From a virus: a stretch of DNA of 64,000 nucleotides. The position numbers were made by a program, and so were the translations under genes. Location: the IMG/VR virus record IMGVR_UViG_3300045988_125296; one strand, 5' to 3'. The notes below the pieces were generated by a model. The model saw only the letters and a list, made by a program, of their open reading frames with translations, was not told where the DNA came from and ran no database searches. Positions within the stretch are counted from its first letter, which is position 1, and each line of letters begins with the position of its first letter. This document shows, one piece after another, positions 4,756-52,171 of the stretch.

Positions 4756-5088
4756 ATGGAAAAGAGCGTTCATGTAAAAGGACATTATAGAAACGGAAAG
4801 TATGTCAAATCGTACAATTATATGCGTACTTTTAAAGAACCCTCATTTCGTAGAAATATAGGTAAATCTTATGCTGATGACGTAAGAAGAAAGATTATAG
4901 CCCTTAGAAAGTACTCCGATTTTCAGTCTCCGGAATATCAATTTGCAATGGACTATATCGAGAAAGAATGCCCCGAAGTAGCCTATATAATAGGTGATAG
5001 TAAAGGAAAAACAAAGTCTCCCTTGAAAATAACCAAAGACATATACGACAAGGTTAATTACGCTTATAACATCTTATATTCAAAATAA
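4756..5088 (+). CDS. basic hypothetical protein, weaker copy of the N-terminal basic motif
   Basis: The track start 4744 is TTG; ATG 4756 gives MEKSVHVKGHYRNGKYVKSYNYMR. Confidence 0.5.
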   Translation: MEKSVHVKGHYRNGKYVKSYNYMRTFKEPSFRRNIGKSYADDVRRKIIALRKYSDFQSPEYQFAMDYIEKECPEVAYIIGDSKGKTKSPLKITKDIYDKVNYAYNILYSK

Positions 5089-5094
5089 TAGACT

Positions 5095-5625
5095 ATGAAT
5101 ACTGTAACAAGAATTTTCGAGTTTGATGCAGCTCACAGAGTTATGCACGAAAAGGTGAAGTGTTTTAATCTTCACGGCCACCGTTTTAAGATTGAAGCTA
5201 CTTTTGAATATGATTCTAAGGGTGCGCTTGGATACGCAATCGACTTTAAGGAGATAAAACGTATTGTTGGTGCTTGGATTGATGAGAAATTAGACCACGC
5301 TTGTATTTTAAATCCGTATGATGAGCAGTTAATAATGCTATGCCGAAATTATGAATGGCGTTTATACATTATGGGTATGGGAACTTACGGAGATATAAAT
5401 CCGTCTGCCGAAAATTTAGCCTCTGAATTATTCTATACGATAAGGCAACTTTTTATCAAAGATTCGTTAGGAGTAACTCTCTCGAAGTTACGTTTGTATG
5501 AGACACCTAATTGTTGGGTTGAAACCAATGGATTCGATTATGTAGCGTCTGATGGTTACCTTAAAGATTTATCGAAGTGGAGGAGTGAAAAAGGGGAATT
5601 TAATTATGATATAAGAAATGAATAA
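5095..5625 (+). CDS. queD: 6-carboxy-5,6,7,8-tetrahydropterin synthase (QueD)
   Basis: FEFDAAHRV...KCFNLHGHRFKIE shows the QueD/PTPS Cx3HGH and AAH signatures. 176 aa. Confidence 0.85.
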   Translation: MNTVTRIFEFDAAHRVMHEKVKCFNLHGHRFKIEATFEYDSKGALGYAIDFKEIKRIVGAWIDEKLDHACILNPYDEQLIMLCRNYEWRLYIMGMGTYGDINPSAENLASELFYTIRQLFIKDSLGVTLSKLRLYETPNCWVETNGFDYVASDGYLKDLSKWRSEKGEFNYDIRNE

Positions 5626-5627
5626 CT

Positions 5628-7283
5628 ATGCCAGTTAGGAAAAAAATTATTCCAAAAGAGGAAGGGTATGTTTTTCCGTCTACTGGGAAAAAATTTACCG
5701 AGGAGGAGGTAACCTCTGCTTTTGAGGGTAAATCTGTATCTTTTGATGCACACGATATTACCTCTAAGATAATCGAGTTTGGGAAGATTCTAACAGGTAT
5801 CTCCCTTTACAGTTACCAGATAGAAGCTGTTTATGCGATTATCTATTCAGTAATAACGTTTTCGGGTGACGTTAAGACTCTATTGTTTAGTAGACAATCA
5901 GGGAAGTCTGAGGCAATAGCCTTTGTTATTGATACGCTTTGTGTATTGTTACCGTCACTTGGAAAAATCATTCCCGACTTGGAGCAGTTCAGTATGGGTT
6001 TCCGTGTTGGTTTGTTTGCCCCTCAATCGGACCAAGTTCAGACTACTTATTCTCGTGCGATGACAAGAATAAATTCCGCAAATGCGGAAATGGTATTGGC
6101 AGACCCAGATATTGATGTCTATCTTGAAAGTACGGCAAGACTTGAATTAAGTAATGGCTCATACCTTGCAGGACAAGTAGCGAGTAAACAATCTAAGATT
6201 GAGTCAAAGACATACGACCTCGTTATTGTTGAGGAGGCACAAGATGTGGACGACCTTATCGTGAGTAAGTCTATCGAGCCTATGCTTTCTTCTACGGCTG
6301 GTACTTTAATTAAAGTGGGTACTACGGGTATGTATAAGAATCATTTTTGGTATGAGATTCAACATAATAGACAAATTGACCGTAAGATAAAAGACTCACG
6401 TATTAGGAATCATTTTGAGTTTGACTATAAGCGTATTATAAGAGATAGACGTGAGCAGTATGAAAAGGACGGTAAACGTTTCCACTTAAATTATGAGGCT
6501 GATATTCTTCGTAAAAAAGCTCGTTGGGGTGAAGATTCTCAGGCGTTTAAGTTATCATACGCTTTGATTTGGGATTTAGAGAGTGGTATGCTTCTTACGG
6601 ATAAGGAATACAACTCCATTATAAATCGTAAATTAGGTTTTCAGTCTCCGTCAACTACTGATGTTGTAATAGCCGGATTGGACATTGGTAAATCTCCTGC
6701 TGAGACGGTATTGACAATCGGGAAAAAGTTTTACCTTGATGATTCTTTTGATAGACCCTATAAACAAATTCTTGCTTGGGTGGCTCTTGGTGGATTGGAC
6801 TATGAGGCCCAACATCATATAATCTTGGATTGTATTGTGGAATTTAATATTTCTGTTATATTTGCGGATTATACGGGTGTCGGTAAAGCTGTTGTCGATA
6901 GGCTTATGTATGCGTGCGGAGAATATGTCGATATTGTTCCTTATACGTTTACTCCACAGAGTAAATCGGATATGTGGTTTAACTTTGTCTCGGATATTCA
7001 GACAAGGCACTTAATTGTTCCGGCTAATCCAAAAGTTCGGGCTACCACAGAGTACATGAAATTTGAAGAACAGATGAAGAATTGCCAGAAGTATTTTAAC
7101 GGGGCTTACATGGTATGTGAGAAATCTGATGGATATTTTGACGACTTTGTAGATAGTTGCGCTCTTATGAGTATGGCTGCTAATGAGGAGCAAAGAGTTG
7201 ATGAAGAAATGGAAGTTTCTCAAAATTCTCTTTACAGTGGAGTTACTGATACTATAAACGCAATTAGAAGAAATTCTTATTAG
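5628..7283 (+). CDS. terL: terminase large subunit
   Basis: Walker A-like LFSRQSGKSEA and Walker B YDLVIVEEAQD. C-terminal RNaseH-like nuclease acidic motifs (AGLDIGK, FADYTGVG, DDFVDS). Sits directly upstream of the portal gene. Confidence 0.85.
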   Translation: MPVRKKIIPKEEGYVFPSTGKKFTEEEVTSAFEGKSVSFDAHDITSKIIEFGKILTGISLYSYQIEAVYAIIYSVITFSGDVKTLLFSRQSGKSEAIAFVIDTLCVLLPSLGKIIPDLEQFSMGFRVGLFAPQSDQVQTTYSRAMTRINSANAEMVLADPDIDVYLESTARLELSNGSYLAGQVASKQSKIESKTYDLVIVEEAQDVDDLIVSKSIEPMLSSTAGTLIKVGTTGMYKNHFWYEIQHNRQIDRKIKDSRIRNHFEFDYKRIIRDRREQYEKDGKRFHLNYEADILRKKARWGEDSQAFKLSYALIWDLESGMLLTDKEYNSIINRKLGFQSPSTTDVVIAGLDIGKSPAETVLTIGKKFYLDDSFDRPYKQILAWVALGGLDYEAQHHIILDCIVEFNISVIFADYTGVGKAVVDRLMYACGEYVDIVPYTFTPQSKSDMWFNFVSDIQTRHLIVPANPKVRATTEYMKFEEQMKNCQKYFNGAYMVCEKSDGYFDDFVDSCALMSMAANEEQRVDEEMEVSQNSLYSGVTDTINAIRRNSY

Positions 7284-7311: not shown

Positions 7312-8925
7312 ATGGGAATAGATGTAGGTGGTATGAACCCTACCGGCGTTGGTAGTTATAATGGCTATCCGGGTTCAAAGTATTGGAATGTTGATAGTCG
7401 GCCTTTAAGTGAGGCTACGAATGTTCTGCGTTCTTTCGTTTTACAGAATATAGTTCAAGATAATCAGTGGGAAATTGATAGAATTACCAAATACTATTTG
7501 TATTGGAAGTTCTATGAGGGAATGCACTACAAGGATTTTAACGATGGATTGCTTTCATTTAATTATATACGAGCATTTATTGATAAGGTCAATATGTTTC
7601 TTCTCGGAGACGAAGCATTTACTTTTCATGTTAAGAGCTTTTATACTACGCAAATAGATACGGAAGTTGAAAAACTTGCCGAAGAATTGATGATGTACCA
7701 TTGGGGAAAATCTCACAAATTGCAGCTTGCTTATGAGATTTTACAGATGGGAAGTATTACGGGTGACGCTTGGCTTGGTGTAGAGTGGATGCCTGACGAA
7801 ACAGATAGATACTGTCGTGTAAGTGTTTTTGATAGTAGACAATGTTTTGTCACTTTTGTAAATGGCGATTATAGTAACGTGGAGTCGTTTATGGTTAGAC
7901 AACCTCTCGACCAAAATGGAAGTAATAGTCAAACCAAGTATAGATTGTTTGTTCAAAGATGGACAAATAAGAAAGTAGAGACTTGGTATCAAAAAGATGT
8001 TTCTATCGAAGAAAATAAAGTAGCCAAATATGACCATCATACTTATAAGAATAAGTACGGTTTTATTCCTATGGTGCATATAAAGAATCGCCCAAATTCT
8101 GCCGGCTATTACGGTAAGTCTGATGCAAATGACATACTTAAAATAAATAAGGTATATAATGAAATTATGCAGCAATTAAAAGCTGTTATCGATTATCATG
8201 TTACACCTACCACTGTAATTACGGGTGCTTCGGCTAAGTCACTGAAAAAAGGTCTCGGACAAATATGGTCGGGACTTCCTGCCGAAGCTAATGTATTTAA
8301 TCTTGGTTTGGATGTAGATTTATCCGCTACTGTAAACTTTGCGAAAGACTTAAAAACAGCAATGCATGAACTTTCAGATGTGCCGGAAAATGCTCTTGGT
8401 AAGATACAGGCTATAAGTAACACTTCTGCTGCGGCATTACAGATTACTTATCACCCCCTCATACAACAAGCTAATATCAAGGCTATGACTTATGGGGAGG
8501 GCATTTCTGAGTTAAACAGTATGATTTTAAGGATACTCGATATTGAAGACCCAGAAAATGAAAGACTCCTTAAATTACATGAGCTTTCTCCTAATTTTTT
8601 ATCTGAGATGAGAATTGAGCCTGTTTTCGCTTATGGTTTTCCGAAGGATAAAACTGATGAGCTTAATCGTGCTCAAATGGAACTTAATATGAAACTAAGT
8701 TCTCGAAAAGAAATTATGGAGAGAATGGGTAAACAGAATATTCCTGAATTACTTGATGAAATTGACGAAGATTTGATACATTTAGGTATTGTTCAAGCCA
8801 AGATAGCCGAATTAGCTGGAAGTTTAATGCAACAATCTCCTAATGAATCTTCTGAACAAAACGCAGGACCTTTCGAAGGTGAAGAAAATGAAGAAGGTGA
8901 AGAAAACGAGGAAATCGAAGAATAA
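7312..8925 (+). CDS. portal protein
   Basis: 537 aa, immediately after terL. Size and position are typical of a portal. Acidic C-terminal tail EGEENEEGEENEEIEE is encoded by a 2 x 18-nt repeat. Confidence 0.7.
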   Translation: MGIDVGGMNPTGVGSYNGYPGSKYWNVDSRPLSEATNVLRSFVLQNIVQDNQWEIDRITKYYLYWKFYEGMHYKDFNDGLLSFNYIRAFIDKVNMFLLGDEAFTFHVKSFYTTQIDTEVEKLAEELMMYHWGKSHKLQLAYEILQMGSITGDAWLGVEWMPDETDRYCRVSVFDSRQCFVTFVNGDYSNVESFMVRQPLDQNGSNSQTKYRLFVQRWTNKKVETWYQKDVSIEENKVAKYDHHTYKNKYGFIPMVHIKNRPNSAGYYGKSDANDILKINKVYNEIMQQLKAVIDYHVTPTTVITGASAKSLKKGLGQIWSGLPAEANVFNLGLDVDLSATVNFAKDLKTAMHELSDVPENALGKIQAISNTSAAALQITYHPLIQQANIKAMTYGEGISELNSMILRILDIEDPENERLLKLHELSPNFLSEMRIEPVFAYGFPKDKTDELNRAQMELNMKLSSRKEIMERMGKQNIPELLDEIDEDLIHLGIVQAKIAELAGSLMQQSPNESSEQNAGPFEGEENEEGEENEEIEE

Positions 8926-10027: not shown

Positions 10028-11026
10028 ATGACAACTCTTTTATTTATTTTAGGTTCAATTTTCATCTTTGTGATGACGGGATTGTTTTTTGGAGAAACAT
10101 CTTCTGCCGGCGCAGAAGGTGGAGGATATGTTTCGATTCCACAAGCAGTCCGTGATTTTTATTCTCGTGAGGTTCTTTTCCAAGCACAGCCCCGTTTGAG
10201 GTTTGCCCAATTTGCTAAGGTTAAACGTGATTTGCAGGCTGTACGAGGAAAATCAATTGTGTTCGTTAAGTATGGAAATCTTACGGGTGGTGGTTCCCTT
10301 GAAGAAAAAGACGTTTTAACGCCGGAAGGAATGACCACTTCTGAGATTACAGTACATGTTAAAGAACAAGCTAATTCTATTCAAGTTACAGAATATTTAC
10401 TTCGTACCTCTTTATTAGACGTATTGGGTGATGCATCTAAACTACTTGCAAATAACATGGCAATAGTCTTGGACGGACAATTCCGTGATACTGTATTGCA
10501 GACTACCAATGTTGTTTATGGAGGTGACGCTACGGGTATCGATGATATTGCGACTGGTGACGCATTTAATACCAAGACTGTAAAGGATGCCGTAGAAACT
10601 CTCGCCACCAATAATGCCCCCCGTATCAATGGAGATTATTATGTATGTATAGCTCACCCGCACCAGCTTCGTCAGCTTCGTGATGACCCCAATTGGATTA
10701 CCGCAAATACTTATATGGGTCGTCGTCAGCTTTATATTGGTGAGGTTGGTATGTATGAAGGGTGTATCTTTATTGAATCTACTCAGATGCCTGTATTAAA
10801 CGCAACCGAATTGACTAAACGTTACGGTAAAGCTGGCTCTTTACAAACGGGTTATGAAGCTGTATTCTTTGGAGAAAATGCTTATGCTTGGGGTATCGCC
10901 CTTGACGTAGAACTTCGTGATGACGGCGTAGTTGAACTCGGACGTAAACATACTCTCGGATGGTATGGTATCTGGGGTACTGGTATTATCGAGGAGAAAA
11001 ACATTGTGAAAGCTCTTACTGCGTAA
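10028..11026 (+). CDS. major capsid protein (HK97 fold, N4-gp56-like)
   Basis: ...AGAEGGGYVSIPQAVRDFYSREVLFQAQPRLRFAQFAK... and YYVCIAHPHQLRQLRDDPNWI are typical of this MCP family. The true start may be ATG 10073 (MTGLFFGE). Confidence 0.8.
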   Translation: MTTLLFILGSIFIFVMTGLFFGETSSAGAEGGGYVSIPQAVRDFYSREVLFQAQPRLRFAQFAKVKRDLQAVRGKSIVFVKYGNLTGGGSLEEKDVLTPEGMTTSEITVHVKEQANSIQVTEYLLRTSLLDVLGDASKLLANNMAIVLDGQFRDTVLQTTNVVYGGDATGIDDIATGDAFNTKTVKDAVETLATNNAPRINGDYYVCIAHPHQLRQLRDDPNWITANTYMGRRQLYIGEVGMYEGCIFIESTQMPVLNATELTKRYGKAGSLQTGYEAVFFGENAYAWGIALDVELRDDGVVELGRKHTLGWYGIWGTGIIEEKNIVKALTA

Positions 11027-13493: not shown

Positions 13494-13955
13494 ATGCCGA
13501 AGTTTCCGAGAATGCCGAAATCTTTACTCAAACCTCCTCCCAAATTTAAGAAACCGAAAGTTAAAGATTTTGTTTCTGATATGCAGAGACTCGGTGAAGA
13601 AATTGCGGAGGATTTTAAGGATACTATTATCAAGAATATTGAGGAGAATACTTACGGTTTTATCTTGAAACCGTCTACTGAGATTAAGAAAAAGTCAGAC
13701 ATTCCGTTAATAGATTCTCGTCAACTTATTGATGCTATTTATAGAGAAGGAACTACTGTTTCGGTTGAGGACACCCCACGAGACGATAGTTCTTTGTCTA
13801 ATTTAGAGCTATCTATCATACATGAGTATGGAACAAAAGACAAACATATTCCGGCAAGACCAGTATGGAGACAAACATACAAGGATTTCAAGGAAGTAGC
13901 CCATGAAAGAATTTCAGAATTTTTGAAGAACCCTAAATTTAAGTCACATGAATGA
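13494..13955 (+). CDS. HK97 gp10-like head-tail/tail-completion protein
   Basis: IIHEYGTKDKHIPARPVWRQ resembles the gp10-family E.G...pARPf motif. Located in the neck module. Confidence 0.45.
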   Translation: MPKFPRMPKSLLKPPPKFKKPKVKDFVSDMQRLGEEIAEDFKDTIIKNIEENTYGFILKPSTEIKKKSDIPLIDSRQLIDAIYREGTTVSVEDTPRDDSSLSNLELSIIHEYGTKDKHIPARPVWRQTYKDFKEVAHERISEFLKNPKFKSHE

Positions 13956-14826: not shown

Positions 14827-15654
14827 ATGCTGTGTAGTATCCGACAGGTAAATGAAGAATTTTTCCGAAAATTCTATGGCCTTAAAATGGTTATAGGAGG
14901 TTCGGAACAAACTGTTTTGTGTAGGTATGCCAAGAAATCAAGCTATGACTATGTTGAGGAGCAGCTTAATCAAGTTTACCCGTGTATAGTGATTCAAGAT
15001 TATGTCCCTACGCCAAAAGATGAATGGTATATAGATATGCATGCTTATTTTGGTGGGAAATCATCTGACGGATTAACAGGATACTTATTTCTTAGACCTA
15101 TTTGGATGGATTTTCGTTATGATGTAAGTATTGTAGCTAAGAGTTATAATGACTTTTCCGCTATGAAAGATTACTTCATGACGCATTTTGTTTATGGAAA
15201 AAGATTCATATTCAATAAAAAACTTAGTGGCGAAGATACAGTAGGTGATATTGTTCCCTATACTATAAGAGAAACAGATATACCCAGAAATGATGGTTGC
15301 TTTGAGACGAACTATGAATTTACTTGCTCTGTTTGGCTTTATCCGAGAACTCCGGAAGAAGTTTCTCTTATTCAAGAAGTTGTTATTTGTGGAAGTCCTC
15401 GACTTTTGTCTGAGAATATTAACGAATTTATTTCTAAGGATAATTGTATTATCATCACAAAAGATGGTAGTATTTTTGCTCCGACAGGAGTTTATATATC
15501 GAAGTATACTGGCTATGAGATAGACCAAATTCTTGGGAAAGCGGTAGAATCTTCTACATACGACCATATTGAGAAGGTTACTGAGAAAGAATATGAAGAA
15601 CTCTTAGATAAAGATTCTCGTACTCTATATGTAGTTATAAAAGATGAACCCTGA
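14827..15654 (+). CDS. hypothetical structural protein (neck/tail terminator candidate)
   Basis: 275-aa ORF. Assigned by position only. Confidence 0.45.
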   Translation: MLCSIRQVNEEFFRKFYGLKMVIGGSEQTVLCRYAKKSSYDYVEEQLNQVYPCIVIQDYVPTPKDEWYIDMHAYFGGKSSDGLTGYLFLRPIWMDFRYDVSIVAKSYNDFSAMKDYFMTHFVYGKRFIFNKKLSGEDTVGDIVPYTIRETDIPRNDGCFETNYEFTCSVWLYPRTPEEVSLIQEVVICGSPRLLSENINEFISKDNCIIITKDGSIFAPTGVYISKYTGYEIDQILGKAVESSTYDHIEKVTEKEYEELLDKDSRTLYVVIKDEP

Positions 15655-15835
15655 TGTCGTAAATATAAAATCTGGAAATCTTCAAGTTAAGAGCGTTTAT
15701 TCGGGTGAGGAAAAAGTATGGCCCCAATCGTTCATAGACGTGAAGCCCAAGTATCTTTTTTTCTCAGATATGGAAAGTTCGGGGATTGTTGATGTTATTG
15801 CGAATGTTGATTGGAATGTTAAAGTTAAACTATAA
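15644..15835 (+). CDS. small protein ending in the first half of a BACON/Ig-like repeat
   Basis: C-terminus FIDVKPKYLFFSDMESSGIVDVIANVDWNVKVKL* fits L.V.P..l.f...G....V.V.sN..W.v. Confidence 0.5.
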   Translation: MNPDVVNIKSGNLQVKSVYSGEEKVWPQSFIDVKPKYLFFSDMESSGIVDVIANVDWNVKVKL

Positions 15836-15846
15836 AAGATTCTATT

Positions 15847-16455
15847 ATGGCTAAACCCAATTGGTTAGTAGTGAACCCCTCAACGGGGTCAGGAAATGGG
15901 ACTATTTCGAATAGTTCAAGTGAGCATACTGGTCGTGTTGCTCGTACTGGAACTGTGACTGTTACGGGAGTTGGAGTTTCTACTCCTGCAACGTATAAAG
16001 TTACACAGTCTCCAAAGGCAGAATTTGCCTCTTTTGATAATGGCTCTGAAATGTCGGCTCCAAAAACTGCGGGTAAAGTAACCGTAGCCGGTAAGTCAAA
16101 CTCATCAAAACTTGTTTTTAGTTGGCTTGGAGAAGTTACAGACGTTGAGATTCCTGCCACCTATAAAGCTGGTGGTGTTGTGACAAATAACGATGCGGAG
16201 ATTGAAGGAGACCCCGGAGCTTCTGCACAATTTGCATTTAGCATTGAGCTGGATTTCCCCTTAAATGATACGGTTGAAGAAGTAGAACGTACTTTAATTG
16301 TTACGGCAAATGGAGGGCAGGCTTCTCAGATTCTTATCAAACAAGCTGCTGGTGACGCTCGTTTGGAAGTTTCTCCGAAAGAAATTACTATACCTCAATC
16401 AGGAGATGCCGTTTCCGTTTCTGTTACTTCTAACACAAGTTGGACTGTATCATAA
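15847..16455 (+). CDS. BACON/Ig-like repeat protein (half-domain, full domain, half-domain)
   Basis: N-terminus: NWLVVNPSTGSGNGTI...RVARTGTVTVTG...TYKVTQ. Middle: an Ig-like unit ending ERTLIVTANGGQASQILIKQAAG. C-terminus: LEVSPKEITIPQSGDAVSVSVTSNTSWTVS*. Confidence 0.65.
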   Translation: MAKPNWLVVNPSTGSGNGTISNSSSEHTGRVARTGTVTVTGVGVSTPATYKVTQSPKAEFASFDNGSEMSAPKTAGKVTVAGKSNSSKLVFSWLGEVTDVEIPATYKAGGVVTNNDAEIEGDPGASAQFAFSIELDFPLNDTVEEVERTLIVTANGGQASQILIKQAAGDARLEVSPKEITIPQSGDAVSVSVTSNTSWTVS

Positions 16456-16466
16456 TTTAGACAATT

Positions 16467-16763
16467 GTGATAAAAACGGTAAAATGGAAAAAAGGAAACG
16501 GGTACATCACTATAACATATTCGGGATTAAAGGACGATATTGTTGTTATAAAGAGTGATGCAAATACCTTGTTCGAAGATAGGGAGCAAACTATAACGTT
16601 TTCTACCCTATCTTTGGACATTTCCAAAACCGTAAAGGTTACTCAGAAAGGAATTATTGTTGATGGTGGCGATTCTTCTGGAAATCGTACTATTATTGTT
16701 GATGGTGGAGTAGCCTCCACAGTTCTTTGGACAGATGGCATTGATTCAGGAGGAGCTATTTGA
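16467..16763 (+). CDS. protein starting with the second half of a BACON/Ig-like repeat (GTG start, no in-frame ATG)
   Basis: (V)IKTVKWKKGNGYITITYSG...ANTLFEDREQTITFST...TVKVTQKG. The ORF has no ATG codon in frame. Confidence 0.5.
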   Translation: MIKTVKWKKGNGYITITYSGLKDDIVVIKSDANTLFEDREQTITFSTLSLDISKTVKVTQKGIIVDGGDSSGNRTIIVDGGVASTVLWTDGIDSGGAI

Positions 16764-17458: not shown

Positions 17459-17822
17459 AATTGTTGAGACGCTTGAACTCATGTGTGATAAAGAAAATTT
17501 GCAAGATAAGAAGATTCTTCTCCTTGCGGAGCTTGTTGAAACAAAGTGCGAGGCTTTAAGTAAAAATCAAGACGGGCTTAAAAAATCTCTTGAAGAAACC
17601 AACACTAAATTGGATAAACTTACAGGTCTTCTTGAAAGATATGAAGACGACACACATGGATGCCCTGTTTATAAGAATAAAGAGTCTTTTGAGAAACTTT
17701 CTTTTTTCGTCAAATACCCCAAAATCACCACATTTGTAGTTATGGGTATATTAGCTTTTACTATCGGGTTTTTAGGTACAAAGGTTATTAAATTTTTAAA
17801 TACTCTTTTTAGTCTACTATGA
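17448..17822 (+). CDS. coiled-coil protein with C-terminal transmembrane anchor (lysis-associated candidate)
   Basis: ATG 17448 (MNSKIVETLEL) is preferred over 17373, which overlaps the upstream gene. C-terminal TM: ITTFVVMGILAFTIGFLGTKVI. ATGA overlap with the amidase gene. Confidence 0.45.
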   Translation: MNSKIVETLELMCDKENLQDKKILLLAELVETKCEALSKNQDGLKKSLEETNTKLDKLTGLLERYEDDTHGCPVYKNKESFEKLSFFVKYPKITTFVVMGILAFTIGFLGTKVIKFLNTLFSLL

Positions 17823-18421
17823 AAGCTATAACTATTATTTTTGACCCTGCACATGGAAAAGACGTAAAAGGTAAATGTTCTCCTGATGGTAGACATAAAG
17901 AATATTTGTGGAGCAGGGATAGGATAAATAACCTTGTTCCCAGATTAAAATCTTTGGGCTATGACGTTTATGTTACTACCGACTCAGATAATGAGCCGGG
18001 TCTTTTTTACAGAAAAAAATTTGCCACTCAATTAAAAACTGGGAATAGAAAACTTCTAATTTCTTTGCATAATAATGCTGCTGGAAGTGGTCTTTCTTGG
18101 ATGTCAGCACAGGGAGTTGAGGTCTACACGACTCCCGGAGTAACAGATGCTGATGTTTGTTCAGATATTATTCTTAGTCAATTCAAAAAGGATTTTCCGG
18201 AATTTAAAATGCGCTTTTATAAAGACTCCTATCTTGAACGTGATAAAGAGGCTTCTTTTACGGTTTTAATGGGGTCCGGCTATATGGGGATTCTTATTGA
18301 ATGGCTTTTTCAAGACAATAAAGACGACGTTATTTTTCTTGCCGATTTAAAAATAAATCGTAAATTTGAGAACTCCCTCGTAGAATCTATCGAACAAATA
18401 AACGAACACTTTAAGAGTTAG
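17819..18421 (+). CDS. N-acetylmuramoyl-L-alanine amidase (endolysin, Amidase_3-like)
   Basis: IIFDPAHGKDVKG...LLISLHNNAAG...GVEVYT...ASFTVLMGSGYMGILIEWLFQDNKDD fits the Amidase_3 pattern. Confidence 0.8.
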   Translation: MKAITIIFDPAHGKDVKGKCSPDGRHKEYLWSRDRINNLVPRLKSLGYDVYVTTDSDNEPGLFYRKKFATQLKTGNRKLLISLHNNAAGSGLSWMSAQGVEVYTTPGVTDADVCSDIILSQFKKDFPEFKMRFYKDSYLERDKEASFTVLMGSGYMGILIEWLFQDNKDDVIFLADLKINRKFENSLVESIEQINEHFKS

Positions 18422-18781: not shown

Positions 18782-19106
18782 TACAGTTCTTGCCATAACT
18801 AAGCCTCAACTTATAACTATAAATAGGTCTTTGAATGATTTATACTTTCAGAAAAAGATAAATAAGAATCTTAGAAGCCAAATATTTGTTCAAGATTCTT
18901 TACTGACTTATTGGAAAACATTATCTTTGAAGACAGATTCTTTGTATTTATTTGAGAATAAAAAATATGAAGAATCTTGTTTGTTAAATTCGTCTCTAAA
19001 AAAATCTTTGGAAAAGGAGAAACGGAGAGTTACGAATATTGGTATTGGTGTAGGAGTCGGCGGCACTCTTTTAGGTGTTTTGATTGGGGTGTTGCTTGCT
19101 AAGTAA
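18684..19106 (+). CDS. protein with signal peptide and C-terminal TM (o-/u-spanin-like), starting inside the previous ORF
   Basis: N-terminus MKILILSFLMVIGTITLSFSQ, C-terminus IGIGVGVGGTLLGVLIGVLLAK. Its start lies 98 nt inside ORF 18425-18781, in another frame. No lipobox Cys. Confidence 0.4.
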   Translation: MKILILSFLMVIGTITLSFSQNFYPKKILWGNDTVLAITKPQLITINRSLNDLYFQKKINKNLRSQIFVQDSLLTYWKTLSLKTDSLYLFENKKYEESCLLNSSLKKSLEKEKRRVTNIGIGVGVGGTLLGVLIGVLLAK

Positions 19107-19128
19107 TAAATTTAAAACAATAACTAAA

Positions 19129-20844
19129 ATGGCTGATGTAGGATTAACTATTGTAGAAGGCGTTGCTAATGGAGCTACCGCCTACAAAGAACCCTCCAAA
19201 AGAAACATTGGACTTCTCGGTCAATTTGTACGAGGTGGAGCTTTTTCGCCTGTGAAGATAACAAATTTGGAGGAGTTCAATAATGTATTTGGAGGACAAA
19301 GTGCATCTTTCTTTGGTCCGGGTATTGTCAAAAGTATTTTCGATGAAGCTGGAAATGCTCCTGTTACAATGTATCTTGCCAGAGTTGTTGGCTCAGGTTC
19401 TGTTGTTGCAAGTGGCACTGGAAGTTTATCGGATGACGCAACTATGACAGTAAAAGCCGGTTACAAAGGGAAAGAAGACCCCGGAGTTTGGGCTAACGGA
19501 ATCAAAGTTTCACTCTATTCTTATAGCTCTCGTGTAAAAGGTATGTTTACTCTTGTCGTTACGTATGGGGGTAAACAAGAAACGTATAGCTATGGAACTC
19601 TCTCTGAGATTCAAACTGCTGTTAATAAAGTTAGCAAGTACATTGTTATCGAATTTAGTAAGGAGATAGAACAACTTACTTATAAAAGTATTACAGGTAC
19701 TGCTACGGCTACCACTTCAAGTAATGAAATTACAGGAGAAGGAACCTCATTTAAGACTGACCTTGCAGTAGGAAATGTGCTGTACGACAGCAATAAGAAA
19801 GTAATTGGAACGGTTGCCTCAATTACTTCGGACACTAAACTTGTATTGACCAGTAAAGCTATGAATGCTGTTACTTCGGCAACAATCTCTAAACGAGATG
19901 ACAAAGTTTATACGGCCAGTTTATCTGGTGGTGTAGACGGTGAAGTCCAAGAGTCTGATTTTTACCCGATTGAGAGTACTACTGACCCGAAAGGGCTTTC
20001 ATGTTTTGACGGATATGACGTTCAGATTATTGCTTGTACGGAGTTTCATTCTCTTTCTATGGCGAAAGTTCTGAACGAGTACTTAAAGACACGTAAGAAT
20101 CCAATCGGTATTGTAAATATGCCCCTTAATGCAGACGAAGGAACTGCCGAGTTATACGCCTTAGAATTACAAACTAATGAGACAAGTTTTCTCGCAGGTT
20201 ATATGGGGTGGTGTAAAATTCCAGATGAAAACGGAAATCCAGTACTGATTCCAGCTATTGGACCTATTTTAGGAGCCGCTTATGTCCGTACACCGTATTT
20301 ACAAGGAGACTTTATACATATTCCTCCCGCAGGAATAGATTCTTTGTTCAAAAATGTTATAGAAGTTATCCCCCCTCGGTTGTCTCAGGCATCTATCAAT
20401 AAGCTCGTACAACAATTCTCGTGCAATATTATTCAATATGTCGAGAATACGGGTTATTACGTTGGTAGTTCACGGACGTATTCTACAAATAGCTTGTATT
20501 CAAGCGTACATATTCGTATGCAGACCTCTTACTATCTGAGGGCACTGAACTCTAAGATGAGATTTTTGGAACAAAAGCCGAATACTCCCGGATTGAAGCG
20601 TGAAGCTCTTGTTCAATTGAACCAATTCTTTAAGACAGAGTACGATAATGGTGCTCTTGAAGGAAGCGTTGACTTTAACCAAGCCTATCAAGGTATTTGT
20701 GACAAGAGCAATAATCCGCCTACGCAGGATAGAAAGCTCTTGAATATAGACGTTCTGTGGATTCCTACTGAATGCACGGAAAGTATTCGGCTTTCTTTAC
20801 AGAGAAACGATAATATATTAACCACAATAGAAACGGAGGCATAA
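19129..20844 (+). CDS. contractile tail sheath protein
   Basis: 571 aa from ATG 19129 (MADVGLTIVEG). The track start 19084 overlaps the upstream gene. Sheath-like size, followed by a gp19-like tube gene. Confidence 0.7.
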   Translation: MADVGLTIVEGVANGATAYKEPSKRNIGLLGQFVRGGAFSPVKITNLEEFNNVFGGQSASFFGPGIVKSIFDEAGNAPVTMYLARVVGSGSVVASGTGSLSDDATMTVKAGYKGKEDPGVWANGIKVSLYSYSSRVKGMFTLVVTYGGKQETYSYGTLSEIQTAVNKVSKYIVIEFSKEIEQLTYKSITGTATATTSSNEITGEGTSFKTDLAVGNVLYDSNKKVIGTVASITSDTKLVLTSKAMNAVTSATISKRDDKVYTASLSGGVDGEVQESDFYPIESTTDPKGLSCFDGYDVQIIACTEFHSLSMAKVLNEYLKTRKNPIGIVNMPLNADEGTAELYALELQTNETSFLAGYMGWCKIPDENGNPVLIPAIGPILGAAYVRTPYLQGDFIHIPPAGIDSLFKNVIEVIPPRLSQASINKLVQQFSCNIIQYVENTGYYVGSSRTYSTNSLYSSVHIRMQTSYYLRALNSKMRFLEQKPNTPGLKREALVQLNQFFKTEYDNGALEGSVDFNQAYQGICDKSNNPPTQDRKLLNIDVLWIPTECTESIRLSLQRNDNILTTIETEA

Positions 20845-23082: not shown

Positions 23083-25227
23083 ATGGCAGGAAGTGGTAAG
23101 GCTCAATTTGCTTATGATTTTGGAATAGCCATCTCGCAGAGCACTTTAACTAAGTTAACACGGCTTACTGGGGCTTCTCTTACTTTGGCTTCGGCATTTT
23201 ATGCCTTAAAGAGTACTGCCTCTGAATACGTTGACGTTTTGAAAGAGAACACTATCCGATTAGGAGGTGTTCTCTCTACTATGCAAGCTATGGAACAAGC
23301 TCAACGGAGACTTGTTCAAGGACAATCTTACTTTGACGTTAGCGACCAATTAAAAGGTATGAATCAGCTCATGTCTGTTGGCGTTAAAGTTGGAGAAAAT
23401 CTTGATTGGGTAAGTAAAGCCGCTCATGCTACGGGTAAGAGTTTTGCCGAATTTTCAGGACTTATCACAAATGCCATCAATGGGAATTTACAAGGCTTAG
23501 TCGATGCCGGCTTTATGACACAAAGAGCGACAAAAATGTTCGCTAAGTTTCAAGGCAATACTGTGATGATGCAGAATGCCGTTATGAACTTTCTTAAAAC
23601 GCATAAAGGGTTAATGAGGGCCATAGAGAATGACTTTGTAACAATTCAAGATGGCACAAATAGACTTAAAGGGGTATATAAATCTTTCTTACATTCTGTA
23701 ATTGGTAAGCCGAATGACCCAAGTAGTCTTTACGGGGCTTTTTCTGGAATGCTTCAAATGATTGGAGATAAATTTGGTAAAGGCGGTGAACTTACCCAGA
23801 ACATGATTGCCATAAAAAGGTATGGCGAAGGAATTGGTATGGTTCTTAATTGGGTTGTCACCCAAGTTGGGCATACGATAGTTTGGCTCGGTAAACAAGC
23901 TAAAAAAGTTACTCAGACTTTACTTGGTTCAAGTGATACTTTTGCAGAACGAATGAGGTCTTTTGTTGTGTGGTTGGAATTTTGGAAACTTCGAGTCGTT
24001 GATTTTTTCAAGGAATATGGTAATGAGATAAAAGGTGTACTTAAACTTCTTATTGCGTACAAGGTATTAAAAAGTGTATTCGTTATTGGAGATGCTGCTA
24101 TGAAGTCGGTTAGGTCTTACAGAACTGGACTTCGGCGTACTTTTGCCCTACGAGAAAGGTATGTTAGACGTATGCGTGATGACGGAAATAAGTATACTCG
24201 ATGGCTTCAATCACTGGCTGTTTTTTTACCACGATGGGCCAGAAAAATATACGTTTCTGTGGGAAAGATTCTTAATTTGGTATTTTTCAATCGTGAAATT
24301 ATCGCTGAAAAATTAGGATTTTTCCTCTTTAAGGTTAAACAAGTTTTTGGTTTTGTTGCAAAAGGACTCAAATTTATTTTTGGTCTTATTAGAAATATAA
24401 GAGTTATAATACCCGCATTAGCTAATGGATTTAGAGCTTTATTGACTGCTTTTAGCACTACCAATCCATTAGGGTGGATTATGCTTGCTGTTGCAGCAGT
24501 TGTTATGTTATACAACAAGTTTAAAGGAGTTAGAACCTATATAAATGGTGCTCTTAAATTGTGGTGGGAACAGATAAAACTTCTTTGGAATATCATTGCC
24601 ACCGTCATCAATGCTGTTATTTATGGCCTTAAATGGCTATGGGAAAAATTTAAGGAATGGATAATTACTCCCTTCGAGAATTTATTCTCGATGATAGGTG
24701 ATGGCCTTAAATGGATATGGGATAAGATTAAAGATTCACCTATTGTGAAATGGCTTCGGGAGAATATATTTGAACCTATTGAACATGTTTGGGATATAGT
24801 TAAGCAAATATTCTCAAAATTTGCAAATATTCCCGGAAAGATTGCCAATTTTTTTGGCAAAGGTAATGACGCTTTACATGAATTAAATGAGAAAATGGCT
24901 GCTGAGACAGGAGTTAATCTTGCAGTCAAAGGCGGTAAATACGATGAGAATGACTCCGAGAATTATATGGATAGATTGTTCGGTAAGAAAGATGAAAAAA
25001 CCGACACACCCAATCCATTAGCGACATCTTTTAACATGCCCAGTGACTTTGGAAGTGTAGGTGGTGGAAATAGTGGACCTTCTACTAATTTATCATTTGG
25101 AAACGGAGCCATTCAGATTATTGTACAAAACGGAGAAGGCATCGATGAGAATGTTCTTGCCCGAAAAGTTAAACAGGTTATTCTTGATTTGAAGAGAGAT
25201 AATAATGTGAGAGGAGGTACATTATGA
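23083..25227 (+). CDS. tail tape measure protein
   Basis: 714 aa, largely helical, with a block of hydrophobic segments (residues ~380-520). Positioned after the tube and chaperone genes. Confidence 0.7.
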   Translation: MAGSGKAQFAYDFGIAISQSTLTKLTRLTGASLTLASAFYALKSTASEYVDVLKENTIRLGGVLSTMQAMEQAQRRLVQGQSYFDVSDQLKGMNQLMSVGVKVGENLDWVSKAAHATGKSFAEFSGLITNAINGNLQGLVDAGFMTQRATKMFAKFQGNTVMMQNAVMNFLKTHKGLMRAIENDFVTIQDGTNRLKGVYKSFLHSVIGKPNDPSSLYGAFSGMLQMIGDKFGKGGELTQNMIAIKRYGEGIGMVLNWVVTQVGHTIVWLGKQAKKVTQTLLGSSDTFAERMRSFVVWLEFWKLRVVDFFKEYGNEIKGVLKLLIAYKVLKSVFVIGDAAMKSVRSYRTGLRRTFALRERYVRRMRDDGNKYTRWLQSLAVFLPRWARKIYVSVGKILNLVFFNREIIAEKLGFFLFKVKQVFGFVAKGLKFIFGLIRNIRVIIPALANGFRALLTAFSTTNPLGWIMLAVAAVVMLYNKFKGVRTYINGALKLWWEQIKLLWNIIATVINAVIYGLKWLWEKFKEWIITPFENLFSMIGDGLKWIWDKIKDSPIVKWLRENIFEPIEHVWDIVKQIFSKFANIPGKIANFFGKGNDALHELNEKMAAETGVNLAVKGGKYDENDSENYMDRLFGKKDEKTDTPNPLATSFNMPSDFGSVGGGNSGPSTNLSFGNGAIQIIVQNGEGIDENVLARKVKQVILDLKRDNNVRGGTL

Positions 25228-44187: not shown

Positions 44188-44248
44188 TTAAGGAATTAAG
44201 TGGGTGTGTATTTTATACATGCCTACTTTCTTATTTAAGAAGTATATT

Positions 44249-47191: not shown

Positions 47192-47196
47192 GCAAC

Positions 47197-47919
47197 ATGC
47201 CAACAAAGAAGAATCTTATCATGGGAGACTGCTTTGAGGTAATCTCTACTTTTACTTCTGGAAGCATAGACTTAATAGTTACAGACCCTCCTTATGAGGT
47301 TTGTTGTGTTGGTGGAGGTTCCGTTAATTCGGTAAAGAACCTCAGTAAAAGTTTAGATTCCTTAGTTAAAGCGGATATTGCTTCTGGATATGAGATTAGA
47401 AAATTCGGTATGGAGGTTGTTCGTCTTATGTCGAAAGAGATAAACGTTTACTTTTGGTGTAATAAAGTTCAGATACCTGCCTATATTGATTTTTACGTTA
47501 GAGAACAGAAATGTAAGTTCGATATTCTCTGCTGGCATAAGACAAATGCTTTACCTACTTACTCGAATAAATATTTGGCAGATACTGAATACCTTTTGTA
47601 TTTCCGTAAAGGTAAAGGCAAATGTTTTCCCAAATCTTATGAGGATGCCAAGACTTTTTATCTTTCTCCTAAGAACGTTACGGATAAAAAATTATATCAA
47701 CACCCCACTATTAAGCCTCTTGATATTACAGAAAAGATTATTCGTAATAGTTCTGAGGAAGGACAAATGGTTCTTGACCCGTTTATGGGCAGTGGTACTA
47801 CTGGTGTAGCATGTTCTCGATTGAACAGAAACTTTATTGGAATTGAATGTGAAGAAAAATGGTTTAACATTGCAAAAAATAGAATCTTAAATGGCAAAGA
47901 AAGAATTATCAAGCCTTAA
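47197..47919 (+). CDS. DNA methyltransferase, beta class (N6-adenine or N4-cytosine)
   Basis: Motif IV DLIVTDPPY precedes motif I VLDPFMGSGTTGVA. Also HPTIKPLD. No adjacent restriction enzyme recognised. Confidence 0.85.
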   Translation: MPTKKNLIMGDCFEVISTFTSGSIDLIVTDPPYEVCCVGGGSVNSVKNLSKSLDSLVKADIASGYEIRKFGMEVVRLMSKEINVYFWCNKVQIPAYIDFYVREQKCKFDILCWHKTNALPTYSNKYLADTEYLLYFRKGKGKCFPKSYEDAKTFYLSPKNVTDKKLYQHPTIKPLDITEKIIRNSSEEGQMVLDPFMGSGTTGVACSRLNRNFIGIECEEKWFNIAKNRILNGKERIIKP

Positions 47920-49332: not shown

Positions 49333-49336
49333 TACT

Positions 49337-49693: not shown

Positions 49694-49750
49694 ACGTTTA
49701 AGAGGTTATAAGACAATTTGTTAGTTTTAGTTTAATTTTGTATATTTACT

Positions 49751-49948: not shown

Positions 49949-49958
49949 AACCCCTATT

Positions 49959-52169: not shown

Positions 52170-52171
52170 TT

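What the first reader, a model, noticed from the sequence alone, without database searches (positions are those of the whole stretch)
15644..16763. Three consecutive ORFs cut BACON/Ig-like domains in half at the same position, each joined by TAA + 11 nt + start
ORF 15644-15835 ends FIDVKPKYLFFSDMESSGIVDVIANVDWNVKVKL*, which is the first half of the BACON-type beta-sandwich pattern (L.V.P..l.f...G....V.V.sN..W.v.). ORF 15847-16455 begins MAKPNWLVVNPSTGSGNGTISNSSSEHTGRVARTGTVTVTG...TYKVTQ, which is the second half (W..V.P.sGsGn....N....R...i.V....v.VtQ).

The same split recurs at the next junction. ORF 15847-16455 ends RLEVSPKEITIPQSGDAVSVSVTSNTSWTVS*. ORF 16467-16763 begins (GTG) IKTVKWKKGNGYITITYSG...ANTLFEDREQTITFST...TVKVTQKG, and it has no in-frame ATG anywhere.

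Both junctions consist of TAA, exactly 11 nt, then a start codon, so each downstream ORF is in the -1 frame. The two junctions differ at nucleotide level, so it is the architecture rather than a recent duplication that is conserved.

Neither junction has an X_XXY_YYZ heptamer. At junction 2 the downstream frame carries TAG (16458-16460) after the upstream stop, so a simple -1 slip cannot fuse the ORFs.

Working hypothesis: three separately made, translationally coupled proteins assemble head to tail, each C-terminal half-domain completing the N-terminal half-domain of the next. This would form a split-domain fibre or capsid decoration. The alternative is an unconventional recoding event.
Basis: partly seen in the sequence, partly recalled or inferred. 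Interest (0 to 1): 0.75.

Follow-up and report, generated by a model that had tools for sequence, protein, structure and literature searches.

The report
Split BACON domains linking adjacent phage proteins
Three neighbouring genes of a gut Bacteroides-type phage each end or begin in the middle of a BACON (Ig-like) domain. This cut is conserved in well over a thousand related protein clusters, so the half-domains probably act as plug-and-socket connectors between separately made proteins rather than being errors or frameshift sites.

Summary
ORF1 (15644-15835), ORF2 (15847-16455) and ORF3 (16467-16763) are each separated by TAA, 11 nt and a start codon. Both junctions fall inside a BACON beta-sandwich.

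A profile spanning the junction aligns end to end with single solved BACON domains (8VA4, 3ZMR). The cut position is conserved: about 90% of ORF2-like proteins end exactly 3 residues after the N..W motif, and 88% start with MA. This holds in myovirus-like, crAss-like and other gut phages.

The junction DNA is not conserved. Gaps range from -1 to +64 nt, occur in all three frame relations, and some carry several in-frame stops. Recoding, sequencing error and pseudogenisation are therefore excluded.

Natural fusions exist for 1C|2N, 2C|3N and 2C|2N. Relatives with a single nick leave exactly one orphan first half and one orphan second half, in adjacent genes. This supports head-to-tail complementation in trans.

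However, covariation, distance-matrix correlation and AlphaFold2 indicate that ORF2's own two halves contact each other. That means either self-closure (a circularly permuted BACON) or ORF2-ORF2 links. The topology remains unresolved.

The module, together with an 88-aa extension of the upstream protein, is an accessory cassette absent from Bacteroides phage BS162P1. I found no description of it in the searchable literature.

The parts
15388..15654 (+). C-terminal extension of about 88 aa on the 275-aa upstream protein (gene 14827-15654). It is the proximal part of the accessory cassette.
   Evidence: The BS162P1 homologue (196 aa) is 72% identical over aa 1-187 and then ends. The next conserved gene (156 aa in the window, 162 aa in BS162P1) is 50% identical. 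The extension plus ORF1-3 is therefore an insertion relative to BS162P1.
15644..15835 (+). ORF1, 63 aa. Its start overlaps the upstream gene by 11 nt. An N-terminal region of about 28 aa is a putative adaptor. Residues 29-63 (nt 15728-15832) are an orphan first half of a BACON domain (strands b1-b4, ending ...ANVDWNVKVKL*).
   Evidence: First-half HMM E 6.6e-11. Aligns with the first half of the solved BACON domain 8VA4. Close homologues are P0272-P0274.
15833..15849 (+). Junction 1: TAA, 11 nt (aagattctatt), ATG. The downstream frame is -1.
   Evidence: The two frames overlap as open sequence for only 7 nt (15829-15835), with no slippery heptamer. Spacing and frame are not conserved in relatives.
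15847..16455 (+). ORF2, 202 aa. Residues 1-58 (nt 15847-16020) are an orphan second half of BACON (b5-b8). Residues 59-170 (nt 16021-16356) are an all-beta middle domain, annotated 'lipocalin-like' in crAss-like phages. Residues 171-202 (nt 16357-16452) are an orphan first half of BACON ending SNTSWTVS*.
   Evidence: Pfam BACON 27.8 bits (cut-off 25) at aa 3-54. Half-domain HMMs: second half E 2e-31, first half E 8e-6. AlphaFold2 pLDDT above 90 across the ORF2 part. More than 2000 homologues of 202-204 aa.
16453..16469 (+). Junction 2: TAA, 11 nt (tttagacaatt), GTG. The downstream frame is -1 and is closed by TAG at 16458-16460.
   Evidence: In most relatives this junction is a TAATG overlap.
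16467..16763 (+). ORF3, 98 aa, GTG start. Residues 1-62 (nt 16467-16652) are an orphan second half of BACON of the short type, with W..G.G directly and strand b5 missing or truncated. Residues 63-98 are a Gly/Asp-rich tail (IIVDGG repeats).
   Evidence: Pfam BACON 23.3 bits at aa 14-61, below the cut-off of 25. Second-half HMM E 1.3e-3. The GTG start aligns with the ATG starts of L121/L122 (MEKTVAW../MATKTIAW..). Relatives carry the same N-terminal half on proteins of 449-469 aa with an ALK_LTK glycine-rich domain.

Best explanation
ORF1, ORF2 and ORF3 are three separately translated proteins. No recoding is involved. Their termini are orphan halves of BACON Ig-like beta-sandwiches, nicked in the b4-b5 loop. 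A half-sandwich cannot bury its core alone, so the halves are completed in trans.

The most likely arrangement is a head-to-tail, non-covalent chain that follows gene order:
- ORF1's C-terminal b1-b4 pairs with ORF2's N-terminal b5-b8.
- ORF2's C-terminal b1-b4 pairs with ORF3's N-terminal half.

Tight gene spacing would let each newly released first half meet the next protein's emerging second half.

Proposed roles:
- ORF1, together with the 88-aa extension of the upstream 275-aa protein, is the proximal adaptor.
- ORF2 is the displayed link and adhesin unit (BACON plus a middle domain).
- ORF3 is the distal cap. In relatives the cap is swapped for larger distal domains.

ORF2's two ends are also mutually compatible, so more than one ORF2 may be chained, or ORF2 may transiently close on itself.

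Shown: separate ORFs, half-domain identity, conservation of the cut, natural fusions, cassette status.
Inferred: trans-complementation, order of assembly, attachment to the virion, adhesin role.
For: 1. The cut lies inside one solved BACON domain. Covariation on 270 whole BACON repeats shows the two halves are interdigitated; the top couplings are first-by-second half, for example 33-73, 12-57, 30-76. Neither half is therefore a stand-alone unit.

2. The cut position is conserved across crAss-like phages (cr111_1, cr127_1), phage DP SC_6_H4_2017, csAssE-Sib and more than 120 IMG/VR loci, while junction spacing and frame vary.

3. Fusions exist for every neighbour junction: P0144 (1C|2N), P0253 and P0206 (2C|3N), and tandem proteins P0123, P0178, P0157 and P0135 (2C|2N). 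These align column for column with the split forms. No 1C|3N fusion was seen.

4. One-nick relatives:
   - L214: an ORF1-type gene ends with a first half, 1 nt before P0206, whose only orphan is 2N.
   - L128: P0144's only orphan is 2C, 4 nt before an ORF3-like gene.

5. In L212 and L213, an anchor protein ending in a first half sits immediately upstream of an 845-1304-aa protein with a second half at its start and a first half at its end. These proteins are too long and repetitive for closure to be attractive. L213 has no protein that could use the anchor's half other than its downstream neighbour.

6. The same N-terminal half is fused to variable distal domains (98, 90 and 449-469 aa with PF12810; 1503 aa in csAssE-Sib).

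7. ORF2's halves are at least as conserved as its middle domain: mean distances 0.31 (2N), 0.23 (2C) and 0.30 (middle). This indicates purifying selection.

8. The window holds exactly two first halves and two second halves.
Against: Covariation within the ORF2 family places ORF2's own C-terminal half against its own N-terminal half:
- 7 of the 20 top BACON contact pairs are at or above the 95th percentile.
- Partner-shuffle p = 0.0004.
- The signal is register-specific: 0.361 at shift 0, near zero at shifts of +1 or -1.

Divergence of 2N and 2C is tightly correlated: r = 0.94, and partial r = 0.86 controlling for the middle domain. The 2C-3N correlation is only 0.39, and 1C-2N is 0.77 (partial 0.26).

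AlphaFold2 on the concatenated ORFs gives pLDDT above 90 for all of ORF2, below 50 with no strands for ORF1, and 50-63 for ORF3. The model matches a stand-alone homologue's monomer model at 2.3 A over 203 columns. However, the alignment was deep only for ORF2, and the coordinates could not be inspected.

A direct test of hetero-pair covariation had an effective sample of only 13 sequences and was not significant for any pairing.

No multimer prediction and no experimental data are available. Virion location is inferred from gene context only.
Confidence: 0.5

Rival explanations
1. ORF2 is a self-contained protein. Its N-terminal second half and C-terminal first half close on each other in the same chain, forming a circularly permuted BACON with the middle domain as the connector. 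ORF1's and ORF3's orphan halves then pair with each other or stay unpaired. The 1-2-3 gene order would be a relic of fission of an ancestral X-BACON-mid-BACON-Y protein.
For: - Register-specific 2C-by-2N covariation.
- r(2N, 2C) = 0.94, against weak 2C-3N correlation.
- Covariation couples middle-domain residues 105-133 to both halves.
- AlphaFold2 pLDDT above 90 for both halves, with ORF1 disordered.
- 2.3 A agreement with the BFVD monomer model A0A8S5TEI1.
- A lone ORF2-like gene among opposite-strand genes in csAssE-Sib.
- The fixed-length termini of 2C (W+3) and 2N (MA + 3 residues + W) together recreate a canonical b4-b5 loop, whereas the 1C tails and 3N heads vary in length.
Against: - No 1C|3N fusion was seen, while 1C|2N, 2C|3N and 2C|2N fusions all exist.
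- One-nick relatives (L128, L214) leave only neighbour pairs as orphans.
- In L213 the anchor's first half would have no partner.
- Proteins of 845-1304 aa with a second half at the start and a first half at the end are unlikely to close end to end.
- Nothing under this model explains why ORF2 always lies between ORF1 and ORF3.
- AlphaFold2 monomer runs are known to close inter-subunit contacts intramolecularly (general knowledge). In the model, only 2 of the 4 expected first-half strands are formed.
- csAssE-Sib has other half-bearing genes at 48909-54589.
Confidence: 0.28
2. The half-domains do not complement anything. Each behaves as an independent small beta-meander or a flexible tail, and the three proteins work separately or bind through other surfaces.
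For: - Pfam's own BACON model (61 positions) covers essentially only the second half.
- ORF1 and ORF3 have very few detectable homologues.
- There is no experimental evidence of a complex.
Against: - In whole BACON repeats the strongest couplings run between the two halves, so the core is shared.
- The halves are as conserved as the middle domain.
- Orphan halves are restricted to protein termini and occur in complementary adjacent pairs across very different phages.
- Fusions restore canonical whole domains.
Confidence: 0.1
3. The three ORFs are joined into one polypeptide by recoding or splicing: a programmed -1/+2 frameshift, ribosome hopping, stop-codon readthrough or protein trans-splicing.
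For: - Both steps are -1 with identical 11-nt spacers in this window.
- The phage does carry protein-splicing elements elsewhere (three Hint/LAGLIDADG inteins).
Against: - There is no slippery heptamer. At junction 2 the frames do not overlap (TAG at 16458-16460).
- Matching take-off and landing codons would keep or give the wrong frame (read from the sequence).
- Relatives have gaps of -1 to 64 nt in all three frame relations, and some have multiple in-frame stops, for example TGA..TAA in L062.
- cr111_1 has +1 and then -1 frame relations.
- There are no Hint or intein motifs in ORF1-3.
- TAA, TGA and TAG all serve as stop codons in the window.
Confidence: 0.02
4. The ORFs are a broken gene, produced by sequencing or assembly indels or recent pseudogenisation of one long BACON-containing gene.
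For: - Fused versions exist in a minority of relatives.
- A T7 run inside ORF1 shows frameshifted variants in other assemblies (P0273, P0274).
Against: - The same ORF boundaries recur in more than 2000 clusters from independent samples and technologies.
- Start and stop positions are conserved.
- Junction 2 would need at least two mutations to fuse.
- The halves are under purifying selection.
Confidence: 0.01

Closest known systems
BACON domain (Pfam PF13004, PF19190 'viral BACON'; solved in BoGH5A 3ZMR and GH16 8VA4), including the crAssphage BACON tandem-repeat protein and BACON-bearing gut-phage adhesins (PMC6949934, PMC13370021)
   Same: The sequence family and fold are the same. The junction-spanning profile aligns end to end with solved BACON domains. 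The setting is also the same: gut Bacteroidota phages, near tail or structural genes, with a likely glycan- or mucus-adhesion role.
   Different: In known cases the domain lies in one polypeptide. Here it is systematically nicked in the b4-b5 loop, with the halves at protein termini and in adjacent genes. Neither of those two papers mentions a split.
Donor-strand complementation and exchange in chaperone-usher pili, and strand exchange in Bacteroidota type V pili (FimA/Mfa1)
   Same: An incomplete Ig-like fold in one subunit is completed by a segment of the next, giving a head-to-tail non-covalent polymer with distinct tip, anchor and terminator subunits. The gene cluster encodes the successive subunits.
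   Different: In pili a single strand is donated; here half the sandwich (four strands) is. No chaperone, usher or protease is evident. The fold is BACON, not pilin. This is a resemblance in mechanism only, and rests on general knowledge.
Circular permutation by duplication or fission, and 3D domain swapping
   Same: ORF2 has the order [second half]-linker-[first half], exactly as expected from cutting a tandem BACON-x-BACON in the middle of each repeat. Closed-monomer versus swapped-oligomer is the classic domain-swapping alternative.
   Different: The 'linker' is a whole domain of 112 aa (up to about 1100 aa in relatives). Complementary orphan halves also sit on the flanking genes.
Gene fission / Rosetta-stone pairs and operon-order-driven co-translational assembly
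   Same: Fused and split versions of the same architecture coexist. The partners are adjacent and tightly spaced (TAATG, or 1-40 nt).
   Different: Fission normally occurs between domains. Here it occurs inside a domain, at the same loop, repeatedly.
Engineered split Ig-like systems (SpyTag/SpyCatcher from CnaB2; split-protein complementation)
   Same: An Ig-like domain is split into two polypeptides that reassemble.
   Different: Those systems are engineered and use an isopeptide bond. This one is natural and, as far as the sequence shows, has no covalent chemistry.
Programmed -1 frameshifting in phage tail assembly chaperone genes (lambda G/GT type)
   Same: Adjacent -1-frame ORFs in a phage structural region.
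   Different: There is no slippery site and no conserved frame relation, and the downstream frame is closed. Rejected.

Membership tests
BACON domain (PF13004 / PF19190) | Significant match to the family profile | tested here: met
   ORF2 scores 27.8 bits against the gathering cut-off of 25. The concatenated ORFs score 43.4 bits (PF13004) and 25.9 bits (PF19190, cut-off 25). ORF3 scores 23.3 bits, just below the cut-off. ORF1 alone gives no hit.
BACON domain (PF13004 / PF19190) | Correspondence to the full structural domain of about 90 aa in solved structures | tested here: met
   The junction-spanning profile A2 matches 8VA4_A residues 35-121 over profile positions 3-91 of 93 (E 9e-7), and 3ZMR_A (E 3.5e-3). 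Foldseek places 3ZMR at rank 5.
BACON domain (PF13004 / PF19190) | The whole domain is encoded in one polypeptide | tested here: not met
   Each ORF carries only b1-b4 or b5-b8. The proteins are therefore members of the fold family only as split or permuted fragments.
BACON domain (PF13004 / PF19190) | Carbohydrate or mucin binding | not testable with these tools
   Only indirect evidence exists: BACON proteins of related gut phages mediate epithelial adherence (PMC13370021).
Programmed -1 ribosomal frameshift | An X_XXY_YYZ slippery site within the overlap of two open frames | tested here: not met
   The overlap at junction 1 is only 15829-15835 (ACTATAA). Junction 2 has no overlap.
Programmed -1 ribosomal frameshift | Conserved frame relation and spacing among relatives | tested here: not met
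   Gaps range from -1 to 64 nt, and all three frame relations occur.
Split intein / protein trans-splicing | Hint (N- and C-intein) motifs at the fragment ends | tested here: not met
   No Hint or intein Pfam hit in ORF1-3. Natural fusions are contiguous BACON with no extra residues. Hint domains are detected elsewhere in the window, so the method is sensitive enough.
Donor-strand complementation pili (chaperone-usher / type V) | A pilin fold lacking one strand, completed by the neighbouring subunit's terminal extension | tested here: not met
   The fold is BACON, and the missing part is four strands, not one. The resemblance is in mechanism only.
Donor-strand complementation pili (chaperone-usher / type V) | Dedicated chaperone/usher or processing protease in the cluster | not tested
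   PHROG and Pfam scans of neighbouring genes showed neck, lysis and sheath genes only. No systematic search was made.
Circularly permuted domain | The N-terminal segment is homologous to the C-terminal part of the parent domain, and vice versa | tested here: met
   The permuted ORF2 sequence (C half followed by N half) aligns to the whole-BACON HMM over all match positions.
Circularly permuted domain | The two segments of one chain fold together | tested here: inconclusive
   Covariation (p = 0.0004), the AlphaFold2 confidence pattern and the BFVD superposition all favour 2N-2C contact. They cannot distinguish contact within a chain from contact between chains.

The most novel reading that the evidence does not exclude
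Gut Bacteroidota phages use a natural protein-fragment-complementation system. A BACON Ig-like domain nicked in its b4-b5 loop serves as a universal plug (N-terminal b5-b8) and socket (C-terminal b1-b4). This lets separately encoded proteins assemble head to tail into modular adhesin or fibre chains. The chain runs from an anchor through one or more ORF2-type links (possibly polymerising, like pilus subunits) to exchangeable distal caps. New modules could then be swapped in by simple gene-cassette recombination.
Probability: 0.4. Interest if true: 0.85.

Novelty: new variant of a known kind. Interest (0 to 1): 0.7.

Why it matters
If the halves really reassemble between chains, this would be a widespread natural way of building phage surface appendages from small interchangeable genes. 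More than a thousand protein clusters at 50% identity are involved, across crAss-like, Flandersviridae-like and other very abundant human-gut phages.

It would explain why many 'BACON', 'cellulase' or 'lipocalin-like' phage ORFs look truncated, and why automated domain calls on them are weak.

It would give a rule for predicting which phage proteins bind each other: a C-terminal first half pairs with an N-terminal second half.

It would extend the donor-strand principle of pili to a half-domain exchange in viruses.

It would also offer a natural, non-covalent split Ig-like tag pair for protein engineering or phage display.

It bears on how gut phages adhere to mucus or epithelium, since BACON proteins of this phage group were recently shown to mediate adherence (PMC13370021).

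Tried and rejected
- **Frameshift, hopping, readthrough.** Checked the sequence and 127 related loci and rejected these.
- **Assembly error or pseudogene.** Rejected from homologue lengths.
- **Single-sequence AlphaFold2 of the concatenated ORFs.** Useless: pLDDT 34.
- **phmmer of the concatenated ORFs against the PDB.** No hits. The profile search worked.
- **Foldseek against the PDB.** Only generic Ig-like hits, so the middle domain remains unassigned.
- **Homologue searches with ORF1 and ORF3.** Only near-identical proteins found.
- **The search for related loci with a diverse alignment and with an ORF3 query.** Returned only close relatives, so no ORF2-less ORF1|ORF3 locus could be sought.
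- **Hetero-pair covariation (1C-2N, 2C-3N, 1C-3N).** Effective sample of 13 sequences, not significant.
- **Lone ORF2 in csAssE-Sib as proof of self-sufficiency.** Weakened once a second half-bearing module was found in the same genome.
- **Literature.** No description of a split BACON was found in four full-text searches and four papers read. Supplementary files of PMC13370021 hold no matching sequences.
Full report
**Observation**

- ORF1 is 15644-15835 (63 aa, ATG). Its start overlaps the upstream 275-aa gene by 11 nt.
- ORF2 is 15847-16455 (202 aa, ATG).
- ORF3 is 16467-16763 (98 aa, GTG, with no in-frame ATG).
- Both junctions are TAA, 11 nt, then a start codon. Each downstream ORF is in the -1 frame.
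- At junction 1 the two frames are simultaneously open for only 7 nt (15829-15835, ACTATAA), with no slippery heptamer.
- At junction 2 the downstream frame is closed by TAG at 16458-16460, after the upstream stop.

**Are these really half-domains?**

Several independent tests say yes.
- Pfam BACON (PF13004, only 61 positions) matches ORF2 aa 3-54 and ORF3 aa 14-61.
- The full-length viral BACON model PF19190 (94 positions) matches ORF2 only at profile positions 42-92. When ORF1 is placed in front of ORF2, the match extends back to position 24.
- I aligned nine concatenated split junctions with five natural single-chain versions. They match column for column, and the stop/start falls in the loop between '..sN..W...' and '..sWl.v.P.sGsG'.
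- A profile of that alignment hits solved structures end to end: 8VA4_A residues 35-121 over profile positions 3-91 of 93 (E 9e-7), and the BoGH5A BACON domain in 3ZMR. The cut therefore lies inside one experimentally defined domain.
- Mean-field DCA on 270 whole BACON repeats (effective sample 224) shows that the strongest couplings run between the two halves: 33-73, 12-57, 14-59, 30-76, 24-74. The halves share one core and are not separable subdomains.
- Half-domain HMMs find exactly two first halves and two second halves in the 64-kb window, and no other BACON.

**Not an error and not recoding**

ORF2 has more than 2000 homologues at 90% clustering, almost all 202-204 aa. It has 1314 representatives at 50% clustering, most about 200 aa and matching end to end.

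Among 212 such proteins, 191 end exactly three residues after the N..W motif, 167 have Trp as the sixth residue, and 186 begin with MA.

The three-gene arrangement recurs in very different phages:
- crAss-like phages cr111_1 (Steigviridae) and cr127_1 (Crevaviridae)
- phage DP SC_6_H4_2017
- a high-GC IMG/VR contig
- more than 120 other IMG/VR loci

The junction DNA is not conserved.
- Junction 1 gaps are 1, 7, 10, 11, 21-25 and 34-40 nt, in all three frame relations. In some loci the ORFs are in frame but separated by several stops.
- Junction 2 is usually a TAATG overlap, otherwise +2 to +64 nt.
- 'TAA + 11 nt' occurs only in the window and its 99% relative L003.
- Within the window, 3 of 85 intergenic gaps are 11 nt, and TAA, TGA and TAG all act as stops.

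Frameshifting, hopping, readthrough, trans-splicing (no Hint motifs in ORF1-3), pseudogenisation and assembly error are therefore excluded. The conserved feature is the position of the nick in the protein.

**Genomic context**

The window belongs to a phage with a contractile tail and a family A DNA polymerase. Identified genes:
- terminase 5628-7283
- portal 7312-8925
- major head protein 10028-11026
- neck protein 13494-13955
- endolysin 17819-18421
- sheath 19084-20844
- tape measure 23083-25227
- baseplate wedge 29087-30598

Its nearest cultured relative is Bacteroides phage BS162P1. In BS162P1 the homologue of the 275-aa protein is 196 aa, 72% identical over aa 1-187. It is followed directly by the homologues of the genes that lie downstream of ORF3 in the window.

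The 88-aa C-terminal extension of the 275-aa protein plus ORF1-3 (about 15388-16763) is therefore an accessory cassette grafted onto a conserved structural-region protein.

In other relatives the module sits immediately upstream of the sheath gene (L212, L213) or next to collagen-like tail-fibre genes (L007).

**Evidence for neighbour (head-to-tail) pairing**

Natural fusions exist for each neighbour junction:
- P0144 fuses an ORF1-type first half to the ORF2 second half and still ends with an orphan first half.
- P0253 and P0206 fuse ORF2 to an ORF3-type second half.
- P0123, P0178, P0157 and P0135 are tandems of two to four ORF2 units. Their inner junctions are canonical BACON domains, and their termini are still orphan halves.
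- I saw no fusion of an ORF1-type first half to an ORF3-type second half.

Gene contexts are telling.
- In L128 the only orphans are P0144's C-terminal half and the N-terminal half of the next gene, 4 nt away.
- In L214 the only orphans are the C-terminal half of an ORF1-type gene and the N-terminal half of P0206, 1 nt away.
- In L130 a first-half-ending gene, a tandem, and a 307-aa protein that starts with a second half but has no C-terminal half form a balanced series with caps.
- In L212 and L213 an anchor protein ending in a first half precedes proteins of 1304 and 845 aa that start with a second half and end with a first half. In L212 the anchor's half is about 75% identical to the long protein's own C-terminal half.
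- csAssE-Sib carries a second, divergent module: a 128-aa protein ending in a first half, a 259-aa ORF2-like protein, and a 1503-aa 'carbohydrate-binding protein' starting with a second half. It lies next to a diversity-generating retroelement.
- The ORF3-type N-terminal half is attached to very different distal parts: 84-102 aa tails, or 449-469 aa proteins with an ALK/LTK glycine-rich domain.

**Evidence that ORF2's own halves touch**

- In an ORF2-family alignment (290 sequences, effective sample 130), I mapped the top 20 first-by-second-half BACON couplings onto ORF2's C-terminal by N-terminal positions. Seven are at or above the 95th percentile, the same as the second-by-second-half positive control.
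- Shuffling partners among the same positions gives p = 0.0004. The signal is register-specific: 0.361 at shift 0, near zero at shifts of +1 or -1.
- Over 16 non-redundant triplets, the divergence of 2N and 2C is correlated at r = 0.94 (partial r = 0.86 controlling for the middle domain). The other correlations are 0.77 for 1C-2N, 0.76 for 1C-3N and 0.39 for 2C-3N.
- AlphaFold2 on the concatenated ORFs, with a 134-row alignment, gives pLDDT above 90 for residues ~70-260, essentially all of ORF2. ORF1 is below 50 with no strands, and ORF3 is 50-63.
- The model superposes at 2.3 A over 203 columns (TM 0.83) on the BFVD monomer model of a stand-alone 209-aa homologue. Both predictions therefore appear to close ORF2 on itself.

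Caveats on this evidence:
- The alignment was deep only for ORF2.
- Only two of the four expected first-half strands are formed in the model.
- AlphaFold2 monomer runs commonly satisfy inter-subunit contacts within a single chain (general knowledge).
- A direct covariation test of the hetero-pairs had an effective sample of 13 and was uninformative.

**Synthesis**

The robust conclusion is that this is a conserved, selected split of a BACON domain across gene boundaries, translated as separate proteins.

The mechanism I consider most likely (about 0.5) is head-to-tail trans-complementation along gene order. In this model ORF1 (plus the 275-aa protein's extension) is the proximal adaptor, ORF2 is the link and adhesin unit, and ORF3 is the distal cap. 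The 2N-2C covariation would be explained by ORF2-ORF2 links, as in the tandem fusions and in L212, or by a transient closed state.

The main rival (about 0.28) is a closed, circularly permuted ORF2, with ORF1 and ORF3 pairing with each other.

Both readings involve natural fragment complementation of an Ig-like fold, which I did not find described in the searchable literature. The closest mechanistic analogue is donor-strand complementation in pili, but the fold, the size of the exchanged piece and the machinery all differ.

The virion location and the adhesin function are inferred from context and from PMC13370021. They are not shown.

Noticed in passing
window 32566-35142, 44204-47191, 49959-52169: Three replication-module proteins carry internal Hint plus LAGLIDADG/homing-endonuclease domains: a helicase, the family A DNA polymerase and an AAA+ CbbQ/MoxR-like ATPase. 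This suggests three inteins in one phage window. The same regions give spurious 'terminase large subunit' PHROG hits.
   Followed up: partly
window 15388-15654 and 15644-15727; L002 989-1360 / 1362-1742: The upstream protein ends ...EYEELLDKDSRTLYVVIKDEP* and ORF1 begins M..VVNIKSGNLQVKSVYSGEEKVWP. In cr111_1 the gene before the ORF1 homologue ends ...QIDNILYIELAETN*, and that homologue begins with IKALVYNGEIL. This motif pair across a gene boundary might be another inter-protein joint. It was not analysed.
   Followed up: no
window 15756-15762 and 15818-15829: There is a T7 run inside ORF1, and public assemblies hold frameshifted variants (P0273, P0274). A GTTAAA tandem at the end of ORF1 varies in copy number (P0272 ends VKVKVKL). 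These are likely assembly or slippage variants, not part of the mechanism.
   Followed up: partly
L132/L133 (csAssE-Sib OR575929) 45751-54589: A second, divergent split-BACON module (128 aa | 259 aa | 1503 aa) lies just downstream of a diversity-generating retroelement (VR/TR, reverse transcriptase at 46419-47816). The same genome also has a lone ORF2-like gene at 5004-5660 among opposite-strand replication genes.
   Followed up: partly
L212 6416-6687: Between the 1304-aa protein P0222 and the sheath gene there is a short remnant ORF, MTTKPAWVPTNPNSGSGNGKVTGY*. It looks like a truncated second-half 'cap' gene.
   Followed up: no
window, whole: The genome is tightly packed and uses a single coding strand. 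14 of 85 gene junctions are 4-nt overlaps (ATGA type) and 5 are 11-nt overlaps. G+C is 36.6%. One tRNA-Cys (GCA) lies at 54207-54278.
   Followed up: no
L005-, L006-, L121- and L214-type loci, ORF1 homologues: In most relatives ORF1 is 72-115 aa, starts with MGC, and has short repeats (for example IGEGLKVS) before the first half. It is preceded by an Ig-like gene of about 90-106 aa. The window's ORF1 N-terminus is unrelated to these, so the proximal adaptor part is exchangeable.
   Followed up: no
ORF2 middle domain, window 16021-16356: The all-beta middle domain with the invariant GDPGA motif has no Pfam or PHROG family and only generic Ig-like Foldseek hits. GenBank annotations call it 'lipocalin-like', 'cellulase' or 'GH5', apparently by transfer from BACON-containing enzymes.
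   Followed up: partly
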